Positions 2,753 through 25,977 of a DNA stretch of 64,000 nt are shown piece by piece. Under the pieces are notes generated by a model. It was not told the DNA's origin. It did no database searches and was given only the letters and a program-made list of their open reading frames with translations. Source of the stretch: Escherichia coli (GTDB taxonomy: Bacteria; Pseudomonadota; Gammaproteobacteria; Enterobacterales; Enterobacteriaceae). The stretch's first letter is position 1. The number at the start of each line of letters is the position of its first letter. The position numbers and the translations under genes were made by a program. The DNA lies in the NCBI RefSeq assembly GCF_011045215.1, contig NZ_CP049201.1; one strand, 5' to 3'.

Positions 2753-4242
2753 TGTTGTGCCTGGCGAATCTGTGCACTGACATCCTGTAGGCTGGCTTCA
2801 ATGCGACCTAACCAGTCGCCAGGGATAAACAGACATCTTTGCTGTTCGCTGAATAAAGCGTGTTGCTTGCGCCAGTCGCTTTCAAGCTCTTCCAGTTGTT
2901 GTTTTATTTCACCTGGCAGACCTTCAGCCGATGAACCGGGAAGTGCCAGCGTACTGCCTTGTAAACTTACATCGCGTACAACAAGATGTTGGGCGCTATC
3001 CACTTCCAGATTCAATTTCTGGGCAAAGCCGATACCGTTCAGTTTGCCGCGAATTTCACCACCTTTACTCAGCCACTGTTCCAGCGCGTTACGCTCAAAG
3101 GAGATATGAACCACTTCCATATCATGCAATTTTAACGGTTTTTGCAGCAGCAGAGTCAGAGTGGAAGCAGTAACGTTAACAGGAAGTTGATACTGCTGAC
3201 GACGGCTGAAAATGCCGCCCAGACGAATTACCGTTAAGGCTGTTTTATCGCTTTGTTGCTGCTGGAGTTGCAGGTGACGTTGCACAATCGCGCCAAGGCG
3301 AGTCAACATCCCTTGCTGTTGCCAGGCGTGACCGGTCATCAATACATCAATTTGTTGTTGTATCAAATTCAGGCTTTGCGCGTCATACCACAGGCAATCT
3401 TTTAGCAAAATGAGATCAACCGGGGCAACAGCACTGCGACCGCTAAAAAAGGCGCTGGCCTGCAATAATCGAATCGCTTTTTTCCAGCGACGATCCGAGA
3501 CATAAGGCGCATCCGGTAATTTATCCAGTTGCTGGCGCAGCATAAAAATCAGCTCAAATACATGATCGGGCAGCGTAATTTCACCAATCTCTTTCTGCCA
3601 GCGTTCATATTCTTCATCTGTGACCTGCAAGGAGGCTGGAACCGGATTGTCATTTTCATCCTGTTGACTGGTCAGCATGGAGCGGAAATTCGCTTTATCC
3701 TGCACTTTATCTAACCACAGACGAATCAGCATGCGGTCATATAACGCTTCCAGACTGCTGTCTGCTTCCGGCAGCTCGTTGGAGGCCGCCACCAGTAGAC
3801 GCATCGGGATTTTTTCTACGTGTGCACCGTTGCGGAACTGGCGCTCGTTAATGGCGGTGAGCAAGGTATTAAGAATTGCCGGGCCCGCTTTCCAGATCTC
3901 ATCCAGAAAGACAATTTCTGCTTCTGGCAGGTAACCGCTGGTTAAACGTTCATAGCGCCCTTCATCTTTTAGCGCCTGAATAGAAAGGGGACCAAAAACC
4001 TCTTCCGGCGTGGAGAAGCGAGTCATCAGATATTCAAACGCGCGGGCATTCTGAAAGGCGAATTTTAAGCGCCGGGCGATCAAACTTTTGGCAATACCTG
4101 GCGGGCCAAGGAGGAACACACTTTCACCACTTAATGCCGCTAATAAACACAAGCGGATGGCGTGGCTACGTTCATAAAGCCCCTTTTCCAACGAACTGCT
4201 CAGGCGGGAAATTCTTTCCGCTAATAAATGAGGGTGAGCCAT
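2746..4242 (-). CDS. ravA: AAA+ ATPase RavA
   Basis: ORF 2746..4266; start placed at internal Met ([14 protein letters not shown]...); Walker A GPPGIAKS present. Confidence 0.9.
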
Positions 4243-9426: not shown

Positions 9427-10317
9427 ATGAACATGAAAAAACTGGCTACCCTGGTTTCCGCTGTTGCGCTAAGCGCCACCGTCAGTGCGAATGCGATGGC
9501 AAAAGACACCATCGCGCTGGTGGTCTCCACGCTTAACAACCCGTTCTTTGTATCGCTGAAAGATGGCGCGCAGAAAGAGGCGGATAAACTTGGCTATAAC
9601 CTGGTGGTGCTGGACTCCCAGAACAACCCGGCGAAAGAGCTGGCGAACGTGCAGGACTTAACCGTTCGCGGCACAAAAATTCTGCTGATTAACCCGACCG
9701 ACTCCGACGCAGTAGGTAATGCTGTGAAGATGGCTAACCAGGCGAACATCCCGGTTATCACTCTTGACCGCCAGGCAACGAAAGGTGAAGTGGTGAGCCA
9801 TATTGCATCTGATAACGTACTGGGCGGCAAAATCGCCGGTGATTACATCGCGAAGAAAGCGGGTGAAGGTGCCAAAGTTATCGAGCTGCAAGGCATTGCT
9901 GGTACATCCGCAGCCCGTGAACGTGGCGAAGGCTTCCAGCAGGCCGTTGCTGCTCACAAGTTTAATGTTCTTGCCAGCCAGCCAGCAGATTTTGATCGCA
10001 CCAAAGGTTTGAACGTAATGCAGAACCTGTTGACCGCTCATCCGGATGTTCAGGCTGTATTTGCGCAGAATGATGAAATGGCGCTGGGCGCGCTGCGCGC
10101 ACTGCAAACTGCCGGTAAATCGGATGTGATGGTCGTCGGATTTGACGGTACACCGGATGGCGAAAAAGCGGTTAATGATGGCAAACTAGCAGCGACTATC
10201 GCTCAGCTACCCGATCAGATTGGCGCGAAAGGCGTTGAAACCGCAGATAAAGTGCTGAAAGGCGAGAAAGTTCAGGCTAAGTATCCGGTTGATCTAAAAC
10301 TGGTTGTTAAGCAGTAG
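9427..10317 (+). CDS. rbsB: ribose-binding periplasmic protein
   Basis: ORF 9421..10317; start at [23 protein letters not shown] (signal peptide). Confidence 0.95.
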
Positions 10318-13783: not shown

Positions 13784-14476
13784 TCACTTATCAGGTGAGC
13801 GTAGCAGCGCCTGACAAGCTTTAAATGCCGCGTCGCCATCGCTTTGGATAATCGCATCGACAATCGCCTGATGCAGATCCAGCTTTATCACTGTGTCGCT
13901 GGTAATTGACGTGAAGTAAGTGTGATAAACCGAATGGAATAGCGAGGCGAATGAGGTCAAAAACGGATTGGCGCTCATTTCATAGATATGCTCATGCCAG
14001 GCCATATCGACTTCGATCCAGCGTTCACGGCGAAAGTTCTCTTTTAATGCCGCCATTTCGGCCATTAACGTATTGAGATGCGCTTTCTGTTCCGCGGTGC
14101 CAACCGTTGCTGCCAGTAGGCAAGCTTGTGGCTCCAGACAGATACGCATAACCAGAAAGTGATTGATGACCTGATGAAAGTTCTCTTCTGTCATCCACCA
14201 GGTAAGCAATTCCTGATCAAGAAAATTCCAGTTCGATTGTGGCATGACCCGGGTACCAATTCGCGGTCGCGGTAAAACCATCCCTTTTGCCGTTAACGTT
14301 TTGACCGCTTCGCGTACCGCTGTACGACTCACTCCAAATTGCTCGCCCAGCTCAATCTCACCAGGCAAAATGGTGCCGGGTTCATATTCACCTTTTAAGA
14401 TCCGTTGCGCCAGCTTCTCAGCCAGAACATACGAAAGGTTTTTCTGTGCAGCTAACTGTTGTGCGCTTAAAGGCAT
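13784..14476 (-). CDS. yieP: GntR/FadR-family transcriptional regulator
   Basis: 230-aa ORF with N-terminal wHTH (GEIELGEQFGVSRTAVREAVKTL). Confidence 0.85.
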   Translation of the reverse strand: MPLSAQQLAAQKNLSYVLAEKLAQRILKGEYEPGTILPGEIELGEQFGVSRTAVREAVKTLTAKGMVLPRPRIGTRVMPQSNWNFLDQELLTWWMTEENFHQVINHFLVMRICLEPQACLLAATVGTAEQKAHLNTLMAEMAALKENFRRERWIEVDMAWHEHIYEMSANPFLTSFASLFHSVYHTYFTSITSDTVIKLDLHQAIVDAIIQSDGDAAFKACQALLRSPDK

Positions 14477-14628
14477 TACTTATCTTCCTTTTTCTTTTTA
14501 TTCCTCCTTAGTATGCCACCAGGAAGTGTGATTACGGTTGCAAAAACGGCAAATTGCTTGTTTTATGGCACATTAACGGGGCTTTTGCTGAAAAAATGCG
14601 CGGTCAGAAAATTATTTTAAATTTCCTC

Positions 14629-14656
14629 TTGTCAGACCGGAATAACTCCCTATAAT
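14629..14656 (+). promoter_or_regulatory. rrn P1 promoter
   Basis: TTGTCA, 16-bp spacer, TATAAT, then GC-rich discriminator GCGCCACC; A/T-rich UP-like tract immediately upstream. Confidence 0.6.
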
Positions 14657-14747
14657 GCGCCACCACTGACACGGAACAACGGCAAACACGCCGCCGGGTC
14701 AGCGGGGTTCTCCTGAGAATTCCGGCAGAGAAAGCAAAAATAAATGC

Positions 14748-14775
14748 TTGACTCTGTAGCGGGAAAGCGTATTAT
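14748..14775 (+). promoter_or_regulatory. rrn P2 promoter
   Basis: TTGACT, 16-bp spacer, TATTAT, about 120 bp downstream of P1. Confidence 0.55.
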
Positions 14776-14812
14776 GCACACCCCGCGCCGCTGAGAAAAA
14801 GCGAAGCGGCAC

Positions 14813-14825
14813 TGCTCTTTAACAA
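14813..14825 (+). promoter_or_regulatory. rrn leader boxA antitermination element
   Basis: TGCTCTTTAACAA in the 16S leader; a second boxA-like TGCTCTTTAAAAA lies in the 16S-23S spacer near 16733. Confidence 0.6.
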
Positions 14826-14956
14826 TTTATCAGACAATCTGTGTGGGCACTCGAAGATACGGATTCTTAACGTCGCAAGACGAAAAATGAATACCAAGTC
14901 TCAAGAGTGAACACGTAATTCATTACGAAGTTTAATTCTTTGAGCATCAAACTTTT

Positions 14957-16498
<1,542 letters not shown>

Positions 16499-19848: not shown

Positions 19849-19968
19849 TGCCTGGCGGCCGTAGCGCGGTGGTCCCACCTGACCCCATGCCGAACTCAGA
19901 AGTGAAACGCCGTAGCGCCGATGGTAGTGTGGGGTCTCCCCATGCGAGAGTAGGGAACTGCCAGGCAT
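19849..19968 (+). rRNA. rrfC: 5S ribosomal RNA
   Basis: TGCCTGGCGGCCGTAGCGCGGTGG...GGGAACTGCCAGGCAT; 120 nt. Confidence 0.97.
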
Positions 19969-20020
19969 CAAATTAAGCAGTAAGCCGGTCATAAAACCGG
20001 TGGTTGTAAAAGAATTCGGT

Positions 20021-20097
20021 GGAGCGGTAGTTCAGTCGGTTAGAATACCTGCCTGTCACGCAGGGGGTCGCGGGTTCGAGTCCCGTCCGTTCCGCCA
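20021..20097 (+). tRNA. aspT: tRNA-Asp (GUC)
   Basis: GGAGCGGTAGTTCAGTCGGTTAGAATACCTGCCTGTCACGCAGG...CGTTCCGCCA; 77 nt. Confidence 0.95.
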
Positions 20098-20105
20098 CCC
20101 TAATT

Positions 20106-20181
20106 AGGGGCGTAGTTCAATTGGTAGAGCACCGGTCTCCAAAACCGGGTGTTGGGAGTTCGAGTCTCTCCGCCCCTGCCA
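20106..20181 (+). tRNA. trpT: tRNA-Trp (CCA)
   Basis: AGGGGCGTAGTTCAATTGGTAGAGCACCGGTCTCCAAAACCGG...CCCCTGCCA; 76 nt. Confidence 0.95.
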
Positions 20182-20187
20182 GAAATC

Positions 20188-20217
20188 ATCCTTAGCGAAA
20201 GCTAAGGATTTTTTTTA
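20188..20217 (+). terminator. rrn operon intrinsic terminator
   Basis: ATCCTTAGC-GAAA-GCTAAGGAT hairpin followed by TTTTTTTT. Confidence 0.85.
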
Positions 20218-20276
20218 TCTGAAATAACCCTCTCTGAAGTAAATCCTTCTACCGGCATCCTTGCCAGCCATTCAGA

Positions 20277-21116
20277 TTAATACACTTCATCCAGCACGTT
20301 AATTTTCAATAGATCGCGAATCAACGTATTTTTATCGCTATTTTGCAGCCATATGGCATAAAGCGGCCGTGAAAGTGTTGTGCTATCGACAACGGTATGC
20401 AGGCCGCCTTTTTTACGCGCCCAGCTGACGGGTAGCCAGGTGCAACCATTAAGCATCGCAATCTGTTGCTGTGCCAGTTCAGCAGAACTGGTTGTCAGAA
20501 TGGGCACTTCGTCAGCACCGATCAAACCTGCCTCATGCTGTTGAAAATCTGGCCCCCACTCCAGTCGCAGATAGTTAAGATCTCCCTTTAGTTTAGAAGG
20601 GGCACTGGTATAAAGCGCTAAAGTGAAATACCCCAGCAACTGACTACTAAATTCGTCCATTTTGGGCGCTTCAGTGGTAATAAGAAGATCAAGCTGGCGT
20701 TCATGCAGCTGTTTTACCAGAGACTGCCGTTGGGCAATTCGCGCTTCGAACTGTAAGCCTGTATGGGCATCCTGATTTTGATACAAACGTCCCAGCCACT
20801 GATTAAGCATACATTCCCACAATGAGGCGCTGGCACCGATAGAAAACTCGTTATGTCGTGAGGTATGCGCCACCTCCTTACGGGCGGCCTGCCAGGTGCT
20901 CATGAGCGTTTCTGCATAAGGCAGTAGTTTTTCACCGGCAGCGGTTAAACGGATATTGTTTCTGTGGCGGGTGAAAAGGTTCACACCCAGTTGATTTTCC
21001 AGTTGTCTGATTCGAAAGCTCACTGCTGACTGGGTCAGATAGAGCGATTCAGCCGCTCGACCAAAGTGACGCGTTCGGCTAACTTCCAGGAAAGTTTTTA
21101 ACAATTCCGTATCCAC
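20277..21116 (-). CDS. hdfR: LysR-family regulator HdfR
   Basis: 279-aa [43 protein letters not shown]... Confidence 0.92.
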
Positions 21117-21234
21117 AGTGCTCTCCGCAAAATTATTTGTCGTTATGATTTAAATGTTTTGTTTTACACTCTGTCAAGCGTAACTAATACTCCGCGCCAT
21201 AACTAGCTCGGTCAAAGAATTAGGAGCGTGCAGG

Positions 21235-21573
21235 ATGGCGGAAAGCTTTACGACGACTAATCGATATTTCGACAATAAACATTATCCACGTGGATTCTCT
21301 CGCCATGGTGATTTCACCATCAAAGAGGCACAACTGCTTGAGCGTCATGGTTATGCCTTCAATGAGTTGGATCTTGGCAAACGCGAGCCGGTTACCGAGG
21401 AAGAGAAACTCTTCGTAGCAGTATGCCGTGGCGAACGTGAGCCAGTGACAGAAGCAGAACGCGTGTGGTCCAAGTATATGACGCGTATCAAGCGTCCAAA
21501 ACGTTTTCACACCCTTTCCGGCGGTAAACCGCAGGTTGAAGGTGCTGAAGACTACACCGATTCTGACGATTAA
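21235..21573 (+). CDS. yifE: conserved protein YifE
   Basis: 112-aa [45 protein letters not shown]... Confidence 0.9.
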
Positions 21574-21575
21574 TA

Positions 21576-21597
21576 AAAAGGGCGAAATGCCCTTTTT
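21576..21597. terminator. bidirectional intrinsic terminator between convergent yifE and comM
   Basis: AAAAAGGGC-GAAAT-GCCCTTTTTTT: hairpin with A-run on one side and T-run on the other. Confidence 0.75.
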
Positions 21598-22956
21598 TTA
21601 TGTCAGTAGTTTTTGCAGATGGATGAGCAAACGGTCAATCGCACGATAGCTAACTGCCTCCTGCAAATGCTGACGTGTGATAATGTCAGACTGATCAATA
21701 TCAGCAATGGTTCGTGCAACTTTCAATAACCGCTGCCAGGCACGAATCGATAACCCCAGATGGATCAGCGTTTCTTCCAGCCACTGCGCATCTTCGCTCT
21801 CAAGCTTGCAGAATTTGCGTATTTCCGGACTATCCAGCCAGGCATTCAGTTTATTCTGCCGCTTAAATTGGCGCTCTCTGGCGGCCATTACGCGTTGTTT
21901 AACGGTGGCGCTGCTTTCTCCCGGCACTACCGTTTTACTCAAAATGCCGGGGGGTGGTAATGGGATCTCCAGTGAGAGATCGAAGCGGTCGAGAAAGGGC
22001 CCCGAGAGCCGGTTGAGATAACGTAATGTCTGTTCTGGCGTGCAGCGGTTATGGTTTCCCTGATAATGTCCGGTAGGGCTGGGATTCATCGCCGCAACAA
22101 GCTGGAAACGGGCTGGATAGGTTATTTTTGCTCGTGTGCGTGAAAGATGGATCTGCCCGGATTCAATCGGCTCTCGCAAAGCATCCAGTGTACGCCGTTC
22201 AAATTCAGGTAGCTCATCAAGAAAAAGCACGCCGTTATGCGCCAACGAAATTTCACCAGGCCCTGGAATTGCACCACCGCCCACCATCGCAGTTAACGAC
22301 GCACTGTGATGCGGTGAGCGGAACGGGCGCTGCCGCCATTGTTTTTGTACTGATTCAGCATTTACCAGACTTAATATCGCAGCGCTCTCCAGTGCCTCTT
22401 CATTGCTTAAATCTGGCAAAAGACCATTAATACGGCTGGCGAGCATTGTTTTACCTGTTCCCGGCGGTCCAATCAGTAAAAGGTTGTGCCCACCAGCGGC
22501 GGTAATTTCCAGTCCTCGCTTTCCTTGCTCCTGACCGACAACATCACTGAGATCATGTTGTAGCGCCCGGGATACTGCATCAGTTGGTTTCGGGCGTTCG
22601 AGAGTGTGCTTACCTTCCAGAAACGCACAGACAGCCTGCAGATGATCGGCTATCAAGCATCCTTCTCCGTTAATTAGCCCCACTTCATCTTCGTTATCTT
22701 TCGCGACGATAATTTTTCTGCCCGACTTAATAGCTTCAGTTGCACTGGAGATTGCGCCGGGAACGCCACGCAGAGCGCCTGTAAGCGCCAGTTCTCCGAC
22801 TAATTCATATTCATCTAACTTATTGGCTGTAAGCTGTTCTGAGGCCGCCAGCAACGCAATGGCGATAGGTAAATCATATCGTCCCCCTTCTTTTGGTAGA
22901 TCGGCTGGAGCAAGGTTAATGGTGATTTTTTTCGCCGGATATTCATATCCGCTATT
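21598..22956 (-). pseudogene. comM: comM C-terminal fragment (Mg-chelatase-like AAA+ competence protein), separated from its 5-prime end by the island
   Basis: ORF 21598..23001; ComM-like sequence from ...NSGYEYPAKKITINLAPADLPKEGGRYDLPIAIALL onward; the first codons (GTG at 23001, MIYQLDSISYANLV) are island-derived. Confidence 0.85.
22947..22956. repeat. left junction direct repeat (att core copy) ATCCGCTATT
   Basis: Identical 10-mer at 35360..35369; comM coding sequence is continuous across the two copies if the intervening DNA is removed. Confidence 0.8.
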
Positions 22957-23026
22957 TATAACTAAATTCGCATAACTTATTGAATCTAATTGATAAATCA
23001 CACTATAAATAACGTTAGAAATCGCA

Positions 23027-23084
23027 AATTAACTACACCATTAACTACACCGTTCGGTGCACTGTATGGAACAACTTGGAACAA
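23027..23084. repeat. left-arm repeat module: tandem ATTAACTACACC x2 plus GGAACAA x2 (putative integrase arm-type sites)
   Basis: 26-bp exact match AATTAACTACACCATTAACTACACCG with 35207..35232, then shared GGAACAAC(T/C)TGGAACAA. Confidence 0.6.
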
Positions 23085-23172
23085 ATAGACACAAGCGATA
23101 TACAGGAAGGGACAATTTTTCTATGCAGATTTGCATAGTTCCAAATGAAGCTGGTGGATGATCAGGGATAAC

Positions 23173-23196
23173 CCGATATGGGAATCCCCATATCGG
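23173..23196. repeat. 10-bp-stem inverted repeat CCGATATGGG-AATC-CCCATATCGG
   Basis: Perfect 10-bp inverted repeat with 4-nt spacer; no T-run, so more likely a binding site than a terminator. Confidence 0.5.
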
Positions 23197-23201
23197 CATC
23201 G

Positions 23202-23241
23202 CGTAGTTAATCGTAGTGGCTACCGTAGTAGCCTCCGTAGT
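23202..23241. repeat. phased CGTAGT x4 array
   Basis: CGTAGT at 23202, 23212, 23224 and 23236, spacing about 10 to 12 bp. Confidence 0.55.
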
Positions 23242-23282
23242 TGAGTCGCAGGGATGTAACAACCTGCCAGGAAGGAAATGAT

Positions 23283-23318
23283 CGTGACTCGCCGTGACAT
23301 GACGTGATTAATCGTGAC
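23283..23318. repeat. phased CGTGAC x4 array, exact 10-bp register
   Basis: ATCGTGACTC GCCGTGACAT GACGTGATTA ATCGTGACAC: core at 23283, 23293, 23303, 23313. Confidence 0.6.
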
Positions 23319-23386
23319 ACCAAACAAAAAGCCTTACCCGTAGGCTTAATGCTTGGCTTGACTGTAGGCTTACCGTAACGCGCCGC

Positions 23387-23566
23387 TCACCGTCGCAGCC
23401 TGTCCGGTTTCCGCCACTGATACGGCCTCACATTATCATGCTGGTGGCGTTCCTGTTGCAGCACAACGGAAACAGGCGCTGAACACCTGTTAATTTTGCT
23501 TGCTGGTTGTTTGATTCCGGCAATGCTGCGGATCATCTTCAGCAAATCGGCTTCGGTGATGGTCAT
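23387..23566 (-). CDS. small hypothetical protein, 59 aa (below the ORF-track threshold)
   Basis: Hand translation MTITEADLLKMIRSIAGIKQPASKINRCSAPVSVVLQQERHQHDNVRPYQWRKPDRLRR with AAGGTG-like SD upstream of the ATG. Confidence 0.35.
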   Translation of the reverse strand: MTITEADLLKMIRSIAGIKQPASKINRCSAPVSVVLQQERHQHDNVRPYQWRKPDRLRR

Positions 23567-23598
23567 GGTTTACACCTTAGGAAATCTTAGGGGGCTGG

Positions 23599-23858
23599 TT
23601 GACACTTTCCGGCTTAAGACCTTAACAAACCTTAACATCGCAGGTTGACACACTTGACACTTTTTCGCGAAAAACCTTATCAAACCTTAGCATTTCTAAG
23701 CATGGCAACTTGACACTTTTCGCGATTTTTTTCGGCTTTTTGACGTGGTAAATCTGGCGCAAGGCCAGTAACGGCGGGGCTTACAGCGAGGTTGACACTT
23801 TTTCGCGTTCAGAGTGTAAAGTGTCAACCCGGCAAGCTGCTCAACTTGACACTTTTTG
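23599..23858. repeat. array of six direct and one inverted copies of TTGACAC(T)TTTT(T)CGCG, interleaved with AACCTTAnC repeats
   Basis: Copies start near 23599, 23645, 23654, 23710, 23792, 23846; inverted copy 23821; immediately 3-prime of the HTH gene 23862..24389. Confidence 0.6.
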
Positions 23859-23861
23859 ATG

Positions 23862-24389
23862 TCATTGATGGTCTGATTTTTCCCATTCAGCCAGGGCGTT
23901 TAGCCCGGCTTCACTCCATGATTCCAGTTCATCGGCATAATCACCTGCAACATAGCAGAGTTCGCAACGCAGCATACGAATTGCCAGCCTGGCATTACCT
24001 CGCAAATTGTATTGTTCAAAGTAATGCTGCCCGTCGCAATCCTCAAGGCAGATAGCACCATCATCAAGAAAGTGCACTTCCCAGCCTAATTCCCCGGCTG
24101 CATCCAGCACACGCTGCTGTATGCCCTCGTCCGTTGCTGGCGCAGGAATTTTACCGTCTCTGGCCTTAACTGCTTTCCAGAACTCGCCCCACGTCATTTC
24201 CAGCGTTCTCTCTGGCCACATTTCAGAAACTGTGTCTTTTCCCTGTGCTGGTGGGCTGTTCCGCTGCTCTGTCGCTTCCACATCGATTTTTTTACCGGAC
24301 ATGACCACTTCGCCTTTCTCGATCCAGTCGTAAACTGTCTGGCGGCTTACGCCTTTGTGTTTGGCATATTCTGCCTTACTCATCAGCAT
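23862..24389 (-). CDS. island protein A: N-terminal HTH (excisionase / terminase-small-subunit-like) with C-terminal Cys pairs
   Basis: 175-aa ORF MLMSKAEYAKHKGVSRQTVYDWIEKGEVV...; C-terminal CLEDC and CELC pairs; assignment by eye only. Confidence 0.4.
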   Translation of the reverse strand: MLMSKAEYAKHKGVSRQTVYDWIEKGEVVMSGKKIDVEATEQRNSPPAQGKDTVSEMWPERTLEMTWGEFWKAVKARDGKIPAPATDEGIQQRVLDAAGELGWEVHFLDDGAICLEDCDGQHYFEQYNLRGNARLAIRMLRCELCYVAGDYADELESWSEAGLNALAEWEKSDHQ

Positions 24390-24395
24390 TATGAC

Positions 24396-25067
24396 TCACC
24401 CTTCTTTTTCCAGTTGAGCCAGCCGCCCGGATATTTCTTCCAGTTTTTCCAGGGCTGGCTTGCAGGCCGCATCAATAACGTCCCGGACCATTCCGGCAAG
24501 CTGCTCTTCTGCTGTCGGCGTTGTTACCTCCACACCCGATGGTTTCCCATCCTTATCCCATACGCCCAACGGTACGAGTGCAACGTGATCGATAAGAAAT
24601 GGCGTACCCTCAATAAAAAAATTGTCCTCGCCCATTACATCAGGAACTTCAGCCCCACCGGACGCACCACAAAACACAACCGACGGACTGGTGGATACCT
24701 CCCCCCGTGCTTTCTGGATGTAATCGATGATTTCCTGCCCGTAAATCCGGCATACGCCCCACACCTCGTCACCGCGAATATACGGCAACATGACGGTGCC
24801 AATAATGCGCGACCGTTCGCCCACGTCTTCAAGGGTTTTGCTTTCGGGATGGTCGATAATGACGGGTACTCCGGCGCAACGTTCCAGGAACTGCGGATTG
24901 AGATAAGTTTGCGGTGAACGCCAGACAAATTCTTTTTCTTCGGCGCGGTAGGCCATTCCGGTTCCTGTGATACGCAGGTTAACCAGCCACATGTTGGAAA
25001 ACTGATAAGGCGACGGTAGCTGTCCGTCCCGAATCTGCTTCGCCGCCTCAATTTCTGTTAAAAGCAT
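24396..25067 (-). CDS. island protein B, hypothetical (223 aa)
   Basis: Protein-like ORF MLLTEIEAAKQIRDGQLPSPYQF..., same strand and operon as A and C; no family recognised. Confidence 0.45.
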   Translation of the reverse strand: MLLTEIEAAKQIRDGQLPSPYQFSNMWLVNLRITGTGMAYRAEEKEFVWRSPQTYLNPQFLERCAGVPVIIDHPESKTLEDVGERSRIIGTVMLPYIRGDEVWGVCRIYGQEIIDYIQKARGEVSTSPSVVFCGASGGAEVPDVMGEDNFFIEGTPFLIDHVALVPLGVWDKDGKPSGVEVTTPTAEEQLAGMVRDVIDAACKPALEKLEEISGRLAQLEKEG

Positions 25068-25131
25068 AATGTTATCCGGTTATAAGCAATAAGCCCCGCC
25101 AAATCCGGCAGGGCTGAAATCAGCACGTTTT

Positions 25132-25716
25132 TCATGCCCCCGCGAGGCTTGCAACGTTAATTTTAACCAGGCGACGGGGAGGGATTTTGAAAGCACTAAG
25201 CCAGTTATTCGGATCTCCCTGATATTCAGTAATCCGCCGTCCGGCTTCATCCATTCTTACGGTTTTACGCAAATAGCCCGGCGTGTTTTCCACGGCCCAC
25301 TGAGCACTTTCCTGAGCAGCCTTGTAAATCTGATCTTCCAGCACCGCCAGCGTTGCAGAATCTGAAACGGAACGAATATCCACATCACTGAATTTTTTAG
25401 CCAGCTTCTGTGCACCAATTAATGCACGCTTGCGGTAATCCATCGACTTTTCACCAGCAAACGGGGCCGGAGCGCGACGGCCCATATTGCTGTATGCGGA
25501 ATCCGCTTTAGCCTGGGCTTCTGCCAGTGAGGATTCATCTTCGACTGACGCGACGATGTTTTGATTAGCGTTATCCTCGTCCGCTTTTGTGAAATCCTGC
25601 GCGGGGATCGCATTCAGCATTTCGATAATCTCCTGCGGAGTGCTGCCCTGCGACTCTGACAGAGCGTTAACCACCTCCATCAGTTTTAATCGCAAATCTT
25701 CTTTGCTTGCTGGCAT
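25132..25716 (-). CDS. island protein C, hypothetical (about 194 aa)
   Basis: ORF 25132..25725; start placed at ATG 25716 (MPASKEDLRLKLMEVVNAL...) preceded by GAGGTGG. Confidence 0.45.
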   Translation of the reverse strand: MPASKEDLRLKLMEVVNALSESQGSTPQEIIEMLNAIPAQDFTKADEDNANQNIVASVEDESSLAEAQAKADSAYSNMGRRAPAPFAGEKSMDYRKRALIGAQKLAKKFSDVDIRSVSDSATLAVLEDQIYKAAQESAQWAVENTPGYLRKTVRMDEAGRRITEYQGDPNNWLSAFKIPPRRLVKINVASLAGA

Positions 25717-25755
25717 TGTTACCACCTCTCTTTTTTCACCAAAAAATCACGACCA

Positions 25756-25929
25756 TCAGGCCGGACGTTCTACGGGATAAAGCGCCCGCTGCATTAAACG
25801 CCGGGCGACCTCATGAATGCTCGGAGCAATCCCCAGCGGAGAATTGCGGCGTTCCTCGTCCTGGATGCGCTGTAATGCTTCAATCTGCTCACGAGCGAGT
25901 AAAACGGGTTTCACGCTGGCTTTTCTCAT
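25756..25929 (-). CDS. small hypothetical protein, about 57 aa, first gene of the C-B-A module
   Basis: ORF 25756..25953; start placed at MRKASVKPVLLAREQIEALQRIQ... with GGAGAT 6 nt upstream. Confidence 0.4.
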   Translation of the reverse strand: MRKASVKPVLLAREQIEALQRIQDEERRNSPLGIAPSIHEVARRLMQRALYPVERPA

Positions 25930-25977
25930 AGTCATATCTCCTGAACAAAACAATGATTATGATTGCATAAACTGAAA

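What the first reader, a model, noticed from the sequence alone, without database searches (positions are those of the whole stretch)
21598..23001. comM C-terminal fragment gains an in-frame start from island DNA
The island supplies a GTG and 14 codons (MIYQLDSISYANLV) fused in frame to ComM from about residue 60 onward, giving a 467-codon ORF that keeps the AAA+ core. No convincing SD precedes it, so expression is doubtful. If expressed, a truncated ComM could affect competence-related recombination rather than being a simple null.
Basis: partly seen in the sequence, partly recalled or inferred. Interest (0 to 1): 0.3.

Follow-up and report, generated by a model that had tools for sequence, protein, structure and literature searches.

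The report
Split comM gene beside phage satellite
The 467-codon reading frame is the leftover back part of the E. coli comM (yifB) gene, cut in two by a 12.4-kb integrase-carrying satellite-like island; its "new start codon" looks like a chance by-product of the island's attachment-site DNA, so the finding is ordinary.

Summary
The ORF exists as described: 21598..23001 on the minus strand, GTG start, 467 codons, N-terminus MIYQLDSISYANLV. It is the 3' part of E. coli comM/yifB. ComM is kept from residue 54, not about 60.

A 12.4-kb PICI-like island (22962..35359) integrated site-specifically into a 15-bp core, ATCCGCTATT[T/G]ATAA, present at 22947-22961 and 35360-35374. The 5' piece of comM (35352..35531) keeps the native AAGGAGG ribosome-binding site.

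The in-frame start is not special:
- 54% of arbitrary island positions and frames give an in-frame ATG/GTG/TTG before the first upstream stop.
- The GTG has no Shine-Dalgarno pairing (+1.2 versus -11.9 kcal/mol for the native start).
- No sigma-70-like promoter lies upstream, and a terminator-like hairpin follows the last island ORF.
- In 12 sibling junctions from other E. coli genomes the extension is not conserved. Three have no start codon and none has this GTG.
- The 14 codons lie between the att core and the presumed arm-type integrase-binding repeats.

The truncation removes Lon-like-domain residues that form the hexamer interface and contact DNA in the solved ComM structure. RefSeq annotates every such fragment examined as a pseudogene. 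No expression data were available.

Verdict: already-known kind of event, low interest.

The parts
21598..22961 (-). comM/yifB 3' fragment (ComM residues 54-506 plus stop), chromosomal DNA up to and including the attR core. RefSeq annotates the equivalent fragment in other genomes as a pseudogene missing its N-terminus.
   Evidence: Aligns at 99.8% to the intact locus L003. Protein families. BLASTP. PGAP pseudogene calls.
22960..23001 (-). The 14 island-derived codons (GTG ATT TAT CAA TTA GAT TCA ATA AGT TAT GCG AAT TTA GTT) that extend the frame.
   Evidence: Not conserved in sibling islands.
22947..22961 (.). attR core ATCCGCTATTTATAA. The T at 22957 is the attP variant, so codon 54 reads ATA (Ile) instead of ATC (Ile).
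   Evidence: A 15-bp overlap between the two alignment blocks to the intact locus.
23028..23051 (.). Tandem 12-nt repeat ATTAACTACACC x2 (GGTGTAGTTAAT on the minus strand). Presumed arm-type integrase-binding sites of the right arm.
   Evidence: The block is conserved in all sibling islands and repeated in the left arm.
23329..23347 (-). Terminator-like hairpin followed by TTTTTGTTTGG, about 40 nt after the last island ORF (23387..23566) and about 330 nt upstream of the GTG.
22962..35359 (.). 12.4-kb integrative island of PICI-like satellite type. It carries a tyrosine integrase, HTH/AntA/Icd-like regulators, a P4-family primase, ProQ/FinO, DUF2213 and an HTH_17/TerS-like ORF. Most genes are on the minus strand.
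   Evidence: Related islands.
33956..35206 (-). Tyrosine integrase (Arm-DNA-bind_3, Phage_int_M and Phage_integrase domains).
   Evidence: It is 92.7-96.9% identical to the integrases of sibling islands.
35204..35227 (.). Left-arm copy of the tandem 12-nt repeat (CACAATTAACTA / CACCATTAACTA), just upstream of int.
35360..35374 (.). attL core ATCCGCTATTGATAA, identical to attB.
35352..35531 (-). comM 5' fragment: ComM residues 1-57 followed by Phe-Leu-stop from island DNA. It keeps the native AAGGAGG SD and upstream region.
   Evidence: PGAP annotates the equivalent as 'magnesium chelatase domain-containing protein, missing C-terminus' in siblings.

Best explanation
The ORF is a passive remnant. 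A tyrosine-integrase island recombined its attP with a 15-bp core inside codons 53-57 of E. coli comM (the conserved AIINSG motif) and split the gene into two pieces. One is a 59-codon 5' piece that keeps the promoter and ribosome-binding site. The other is a 453-codon 3' piece that has neither. The 3' piece stays open for 23 more codons into the AT-rich arm of the island, and one of those codons happens to be GTG. That arm DNA serves integration: it lies between the core and the tandem GGTGTAGTTAAT repeats, which are the presumed arm-type Int sites. It was not shaped to restart comM. While the island is integrated, comM is most likely a null allele. Precise excision would rebuild an intact gene, because the one core mismatch is synonymous (ATA or ATC, both Ile54). 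Shown: the anatomy, the empty site in other genomes, the lack of translation and transcription signals, and the non-conservation of the extension. Inferred: no protein is made, and a product lacking residues 1-53 would be non-functional.
For: Intact-locus comparison: L003 aligns to window 21098-22961 and 35360-36210 with a 15-bp overlap, which is the direct repeat.

Empty site: 5398 of 5425 E. coli genomes carry the site uninterrupted. The 27 others do not, and the split example shown breaks at the core. In 11 of the 12 fetched junctions PGAP annotates an identical-length 1365-nt 3' pseudogene 'missing N-terminus', with no frameshift notes; the twelfth (L005) is annotated the same way, with locus coordinates 1626-2990.

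Translation signal: the anti-SD duplex is +1.2 kcal/mol for the GTG, against -11.9 for the native ATG and a median of -3.6 for 26 reference genes in the window. No in-frame alternative start with an SD occurs before codon 116.

Transcription: 0 sigma-70-like sites were found in 22700-24500, where shuffles give 2.2. A terminator-like hairpin at 23347-23329 follows the last island ORF. The promoter-like site upstream of int in the left arm has no counterpart in the right arm.

Chance: 54% of arbitrary island positions and frames give a start-type codon before a stop.

No conservation: across 12 sibling junctions the in-frame extension is 2-27 codons long. Three have no start-type codon, the others have TTG, ATG or GTG at -3 or -5, and the closest relative has GTA where the window has GTG.

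The same arm sequence occurs in an island integrated outside comM, between smrA and abgR.

Structure: in L. pneumophila ComM the Lon-like domain spans roughly residues 1-170, before a 170-190 linker, and forms the hexamer scaffold. E22, S26 and R50 make inter-subunit contacts, and K43 and K46 contact DNA (PMC11612176). These positions align without gaps to E. coli ComM and all lie in the deleted 1-53.
Against: There are no expression data of any kind. The fragment is undecayed: 99% identical to intact alleles, with the Walker A motif GPPGTGKT and the Walker B motif intact. Island genes are co-oriented with it, so read-through past a modest 6-bp-stem terminator is possible, especially on induction. 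GTG is a legitimate start codon, and the AU-rich upstream region could allow weak SD-independent initiation. A gene caller did call this exact 467-aa protein once in a public assembly.
Confidence: 0.9

Rival explanations
1. Regulated gene integrity. The island family uses comM as a reversible switch: integration turns ComM off and excision turns it back on. The two fragments are then stored halves rather than a decaying pseudogene. This is compatible with the best explanation for the ORF itself, which would still be unexpressed, but it adds a selected function to the insertion.
For: The insertion is precise and the core difference is synonymous, so excision restores ComM. Several different islands, including cf-PICI-like elements with capsid genes (L001, L002) and a capsid-less one (L005), occupy exactly the same position with 92.7-96.9% identical integrases. 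No fragment in the 12 genomes is annotated as frameshifted. Mageeney et al. 2020 list yifB/comM among genes disrupted without restoration by tight integrase clades (PMC7192596). comM is a recurrent target of mobile elements in Acinetobacter, Aggregatibacter and Pasteurellaceae (PMC11472951).
Against: Only 27 of 5425 E. coli genomes carry an insertion here. A 96.9%-identical integrase also uses an intergenic site between smrA and abgR, so comM may simply be one of two look-alike targets. E. coli is not known for efficient natural transformation (my own knowledge), so the selective value of switching comM is unclear. There is no evidence that excision is coupled to any physiological signal.
Confidence: 0.2
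2. The fusion ORF is translated from the island-supplied GTG and yields an N-terminally truncated ComM (lacking residues 1-53, plus 14 new residues). It keeps the AAA+ motor and alters recombination, for example as a poison subunit, instead of being a null.
For: The 467-codon frame is intact, with complete Mg_chelatase and Mg_chelatase_C domains. It is co-oriented with the island operon. The terminator upstream is only moderate. The GTG start has an AU-rich leader.
Against: There is no SD and no promoter-like site. The extension and its start codon are not conserved among 12 sibling junctions, and three lack any start. The truncation removes one third of the Lon-like scaffold fold, including three of the four named interface residues and two of the three DNA-contact positions. 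The in-frame start is expected by chance about half the time.
Confidence: 0.04
3. Target-gene restoration. The island's attP carries a substitute 5' end so that comM stays functional after integration, as integrative elements do at tRNA genes and at the ends of some protein-coding genes.
For: The frame is continuous from island DNA into comM, and a start-type codon is present.
Against: The 14 codons replace 53 residues and show no similarity to them. No SD or promoter is supplied. Sibling attP arms carry stops 2-5 codons upstream of the core. The Pfam ChlI domain is truncated rather than restored.
Confidence: 0.01

Closest known systems
Satellite islands (cf-PICI-like and capsid-less) integrated at the same comM codon-54 site in other E. 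coli genomes (e.g. TUM9757, O177:H21, ETEC1748)
   Same: Identical breakpoint and core. They show the same 1365-nt 3' pseudogene and 174-nt 5' pseudogene, 92.7-96.9% identical integrases and the same arm-repeat block.
   Different: The cargo differs: L001 and L002 carry capsid, portal, protease and terminase genes, which the window's island lacks. The 40-60 nt between the arm repeats and the core differ, so the 14-codon GTG extension is unique to this window.
IGE-interrupted comM/yifB as 'regulated gene integrity' candidates (Mageeney et al. 2020, PMC7192596)
   Same: A site-specific integrase island disrupts a conserved ComM domain without restoring it, and this has happened repeatedly and independently.
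   Different: The cases visible in their supplement disrupt the Mg_chelatase (AAA+) Pfam domain in other genera. Here the cut is in the N-terminal ChlI/Lon-like domain of E. coli ComM.
AbaR/AbGRI (Tn7-like) resistance islands in Acinetobacter baumannii comM
   Same: A mobile element splits comM, leaving two pseudogene fragments. This is associated with reduced transformation (PMC11472951).
   Different: Those insert by transposition into the Mg-chelatase domain, not by tyrosine-integrase recombination at a 15-bp core, and they carry resistance cargo. Precise excision is not a feature of the transposon.
Listeria comK prophage and other 'active lysogeny' switches
   Same: A competence-related gene is split by an integrase-bearing element, and precise excision restores it (cited as a known RGI case in PMC7192596).
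   Different: Excision coupled to host physiology is demonstrated there. Nothing of the kind is shown here.

Membership tests
ComM/YifB Mg-chelatase-like AAA+ helicase (full-length, functional) | Complete N-terminal Lon-protease-like (ChlI, PF13541) domain that forms the hexamer scaffold | tested here: not met
   Only profile positions 32-121 of 121 are matched. Residues 1-53 are absent, including E22, S26, R50, K43 and position 46.
ComM/YifB Mg-chelatase-like AAA+ helicase (full-length, functional) | AAA+ Mg_chelatase domain with Walker A/B motifs, plus the Mg_chelatase_C domain | tested here: met
   PF01078 at 1e-89 and PF13335 at 8e-31. GPPGTGKT and VLFLDE are present. NF007365 scores 1022 bits against a cut-off of 530.
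ComM/YifB Mg-chelatase-like AAA+ helicase (full-length, functional) | Own start codon with a ribosome-binding site and promoter | tested here: not met
   SD duplex +1.2 kcal/mol. No promoter-like site. The native ATG and AAGGAGG lie 12.5 kb away at 35531.
Site-specific (tyrosine integrase) integrative element insertion | Direct repeat of the attB core at both ends, and an uninterrupted empty site in related genomes | tested here: met
   The 15-bp core sits at 22947-22961 and 35360-35374. The site is uninterrupted in 5398 of 5425 genomes.
Site-specific (tyrosine integrase) integrative element insertion | Integrase gene adjacent to one att site, with arm-type repeats on both arms | tested here: met
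   GGTGTAGTTAAT x2 occurs in both arms. Binding by Int is inferred, not tested.
PICI-type phage satellite (criteria of Fillol-Salom et al. 2018, PMC6092414) | Integrase, replication module and regulators; size about 12-15 kb; no phage structural or lytic genes | tested here: met
   12.4 kb. It has an integrase, a P4-family primase, and HTH/AntA/Icd-like regulators. No capsid, tail or lysis family hit was found; only a weak DUF2213/protease-like match and a TerS-like/HTH_17 match.
PICI-type phage satellite (criteria of Fillol-Salom et al. 2018, PMC6092414) | Helper-phage-dependent induction and packaging | not testable with these tools
   Needs experiments.
attP-borne restoration of the target gene | Island end encodes a homologous replacement for the displaced gene end | tested here: not met
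   The 14 codons are unrelated to ComM 1-53. They are not conserved, and stops occur in siblings.
Regulated gene integrity (Mageeney et al. 2020) | Domain disruption without restoration, seen in multiple independent elements of a tight integrase clade at the same position | tested here: met
   Twelve junctions were examined, carrying at least three different island types.
Regulated gene integrity (Mageeney et al. 2020) | Excision and re-integration linked to a physiological state | not testable with these tools
   No data.

The most novel reading that the evidence does not exclude
On satellite induction, read-through from the island's co-oriented operon produces some truncated ComM (lacking residues 1-53) from the SD-less GTG. 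This Lon-domain-crippled AAA+ protein interferes with host branch migration to the satellite's benefit. A milder version is that the satellite family uses comM as a reversible off/on switch in E. coli.
Probability: 0.03. Interest if true: 0.45.

Novelty: already known. Interest (0 to 1): 0.07.

Why it matters
It matters little. The result keeps a mechanical ORF from being read as a neo-functional gene. It pins down the exact att core (codons 53-57, motif AIINSG) used by a small family of E. coli satellites in comM. It also records that comM in this strain is most likely null but restorable by excision. Only if the truncated protein were shown to be made and active would it bear on how mobile elements manipulate recombination.

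Tried and rejected
1. I searched for a CRP-S-type site (TGCGA-N6-TCGCA, up to 1 mismatch) near the native comM promoter. The only hit was at 9486, fewer than chance gives, so no claim is made about Sxy regulation.

2. I looked for any Rfam RNA in 19900-36500. It found only two tRNAs and an ilv-leader-region family, so no RNA element explains the region.

3. I suspected that the arm block shared by both island ends might carry an outward promoter into the comM fragment. The promoter-like site upstream of int (35333-35304) lies outside the shared block, and the right arm has none.

4. I considered the 597-aa ORF (30765-32558) as possible novel cargo. It is mostly an antisense artefact: only the last 160 or so residues correspond to an Icd-like gene, and YlcI/YnfO-type genes lie on the opposite strand.

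5. I looked for an in-frame internal start with an SD that could give a useful shorter product. The first is TTG at codon 116, which would delete the whole Lon-like domain, and the next is the ATG inside Walker A.

6. I did not run structure prediction of the truncated protein. AlphaFold confidence does not report on destabilisation by truncation.

Full report
**Observation**

The ORF is real and sits at the stated coordinates. The ORF listing reports 21598..23001 on the minus strand, 467 aa, GTG start, beginning MIYQLDSISYANLVINSGYEY. The sequence upstream of the GTG is ...TTCTAACGTTATTTATA-GTG.

BLASTP aligns residues 14-467 to residues 53-506 of a typical 506-aa E. coli YifB/ComM, with 448/454 identities and no gaps. 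The NCBIfam YifB equivalog NF007365 is matched over profile positions 52-506. Pfam finds complete Mg_chelatase and Mg_chelatase_C domains, but a ChlI (Lon-like) domain cut to profile positions 32-121 of 121.

**What is there**

The flanking genes identify the E. coli rrnC-hdfR-maoP-comM-ilv region: tRNA-Asp and tRNA-Trp, hdfR, maoP, then ilvG, ilvE, ilvD and ilvA.

An intact locus (L003) aligns to window 21098-22961 and 35360-36210 with a 15-bp overlap. That overlap is the direct repeat ATCCGCTATT[T/G]ATAA, at 22947-22961 and 35360-35374. On the coding strand it is TTAT[A/C]AATAGCGGAT, which covers codons I53-I54-N55-S56-G57. The single mismatch makes codon 54 ATA or ATC. Both encode Ile, so precise excision would restore ComM unchanged.

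Between the repeats lie 12.4 kb carrying:
- a tyrosine integrase (33956-35206);
- an AntA-family protein, an Icd-like protein and a P4-family primase;
- ProQ/FinO, DUF2213 and an HTH_17/TerS-like ORF.

Most of these genes are on the minus strand. No capsid, tail or lysis family was hit. By the bioinformatic criteria of Fillol-Salom et al. 2018 (PMC6092414) this is a PICI-type satellite. Helper dependence cannot be tested here.

The 5' comM piece (35352-35531) encodes ComM 1-57 followed by Phe-Leu-stop, and it keeps the native AAGGAGG Shine-Dalgarno sequence.

**Is the in-frame start meaningful?**

Five tests say no.

1. Chance. Scanning upstream from arbitrary positions and frames of this island, 54% meet an ATG, GTG or TTG before a stop, and 36% give an extension of at least 14 codons.

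2. Translation signal. The anti-SD duplex energy for -20..-4 is +1.2 kcal/mol. That is weaker than about 95% of sampled window positions. The native comM ATG scores -11.9, and 26 reference genes have a median of -3.6. No in-frame alternative start with an SD occurs before codon 116.

3. Transcription. The consensus scan finds no sigma-70-like site on either strand in 22700-24500, where shuffles give 2.2. It finds a terminator-like hairpin at 23347-23329, about 40 nt after the last island ORF. The promoter-like site upstream of int in the left arm has no counterpart in the right arm. The two arms share only a block of TTGTTCCA x2 plus GGTGTAGTTAAT x2, the presumed protein-binding sites.

4. Conservation. 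Related islands occupy exactly the same site in other E. coli genomes, and I fetched 12 junctions. The arm block and the core are conserved, but the 40-60 nt between them vary. The in-frame extension is 2-27 codons long. Three junctions have no start-type codon, the others have TTG, ATG or GTG at -3 or -5, and the closest relative reads GTA where the window reads GTG. The same arm also occurs in an island integrated outside comM. The 14 codons are therefore attP-arm DNA, not a gene-restoring cassette.

5. Protein. The cryo-EM study of L. pneumophila ComM (PDB 8rxd; PMC11612176) describes an N-terminal Lon-like domain, followed by a linker at residues 170-190, that acts as the hexamerisation scaffold. 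Inter-subunit contacts are S26-R50 and E22-R117, and K43, K46 and K64 contact DNA. E. coli ComM aligns without gaps over the first 100 residues and has E22, S26, K43, R46 and R50. All five lie in the deleted segment.

**Population and annotation**

Of the 5425 E. coli complete genomes with a match, 5398 carry the site uninterrupted and 27 do not. The split example shown breaks at the core. In all 12 junctions examined, PGAP annotates the 3' piece as a pseudogene 'missing N-terminus' of 1365 nt, and it does not flag any of them as frameshifted. The exact 467-aa sequence occurs once in the 15-billion-protein collection, on one Logan contig, inside the ordinary YifB cluster.

**Known context**

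Mageeney et al. 2020 list yifB/comM among genes disrupted without restoration by tight integrase clades, which they call 'regulated gene integrity' (PMC7192596). A 2024 PLoS Biology study reviews comM as a recurrent target of mobile elements in Acinetobacter, Aggregatibacter and Pasteurellaceae (PMC11472951). The window adds an E. coli example cut in the Lon-like domain, but the kind of event is known.

**Verdict**

The most likely state is a comM null allele that is restorable by excision (confidence 0.9). A selected switch function for the insertion is possible (about 0.2, and not exclusive of the first). An expressed, active truncated ComM is unlikely (about 0.04). No expression data were available, and that remains the one real gap. 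Interest is low.

Noticed in passing
window 33956-35374 and 22947-23110; L004 (E. coli cq9) 2900-3120 and 13904-15420: An island whose integrase is 96.9% identical to the window's sits not in comM but between smrA and abgR. The two targets look alike but differ at a few bases: comM ATTAT[C/A]AATAGCGGAT versus smrA-abgR ATTAT[T/A]AATATCGTGA. Each island's attP core matches its own target. One integrase lineage thus has two att specificities.
   Followed up: partly
L001 17703-32530 and L002 17469-31985 versus window 22962-35359 and L005: The same comM att site and integrase type are shared by elements with quite different cargo. L001 and L002 are cf-PICI-like islands with capsid, portal, protease, HNH and terminase genes. 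The window and L005 carry capsid-less islands. This points to exchange of the int-att module among satellite types.
   Followed up: partly
window 30765-32558 (-): A 597-codon open frame looks like a large cargo gene, but it is mostly an antisense artefact. Only the C-terminal 160 or so residues match an Icd-like protein. YlcI/YnfO-type and hypothetical genes lie on the plus strand at about 31330-31875.
   Followed up: yes
window 23599-23861: An array of at least six copies of (A/G)(C/G)TTGACACTTT(T) occurs in both orientations, at spacings of about 54-56, 82 and 138 nt. It lies between the 59-aa ORF and the HTH_17/TerS-like ORF. It could be a pac/cos-type site, an origin or a regulator-binding array. 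It was not analysed.
   Followed up: no
window 23202-23241 and 23283-23318 (minus strand): Two sets of four short phased repeats lie in the island's right arm: ACTACG at 12, 12 and 10-nt spacing, and (G/A)TCACG at exactly 10-nt spacing. Next to them is the perfect inverted repeat CCGATATGGG/CCCATATCGG at 23173-23196. These are probably binding sites for recombination-directionality or host factors.
   Followed up: no
L003 3001-4521 (E. coli OkiPb01695 yifB): This 'intact' comM, used as the empty-site reference, has Walker A GPPGTGNTM (Lys to Asn). The window's fragment and typical alleles have GPPGTGKTM. The change would probably inactivate ComM in that otherwise uninterrupted gene.
   Followed up: no
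window 35813-36102 (+): Rfam RF02744 (Rev39_5p_UTR, 157 bits) matches the region between the comM 5' fragment and ilvG, which is the ilvL/ilvX leader region. It is unaffected by the island.
   Followed up: no
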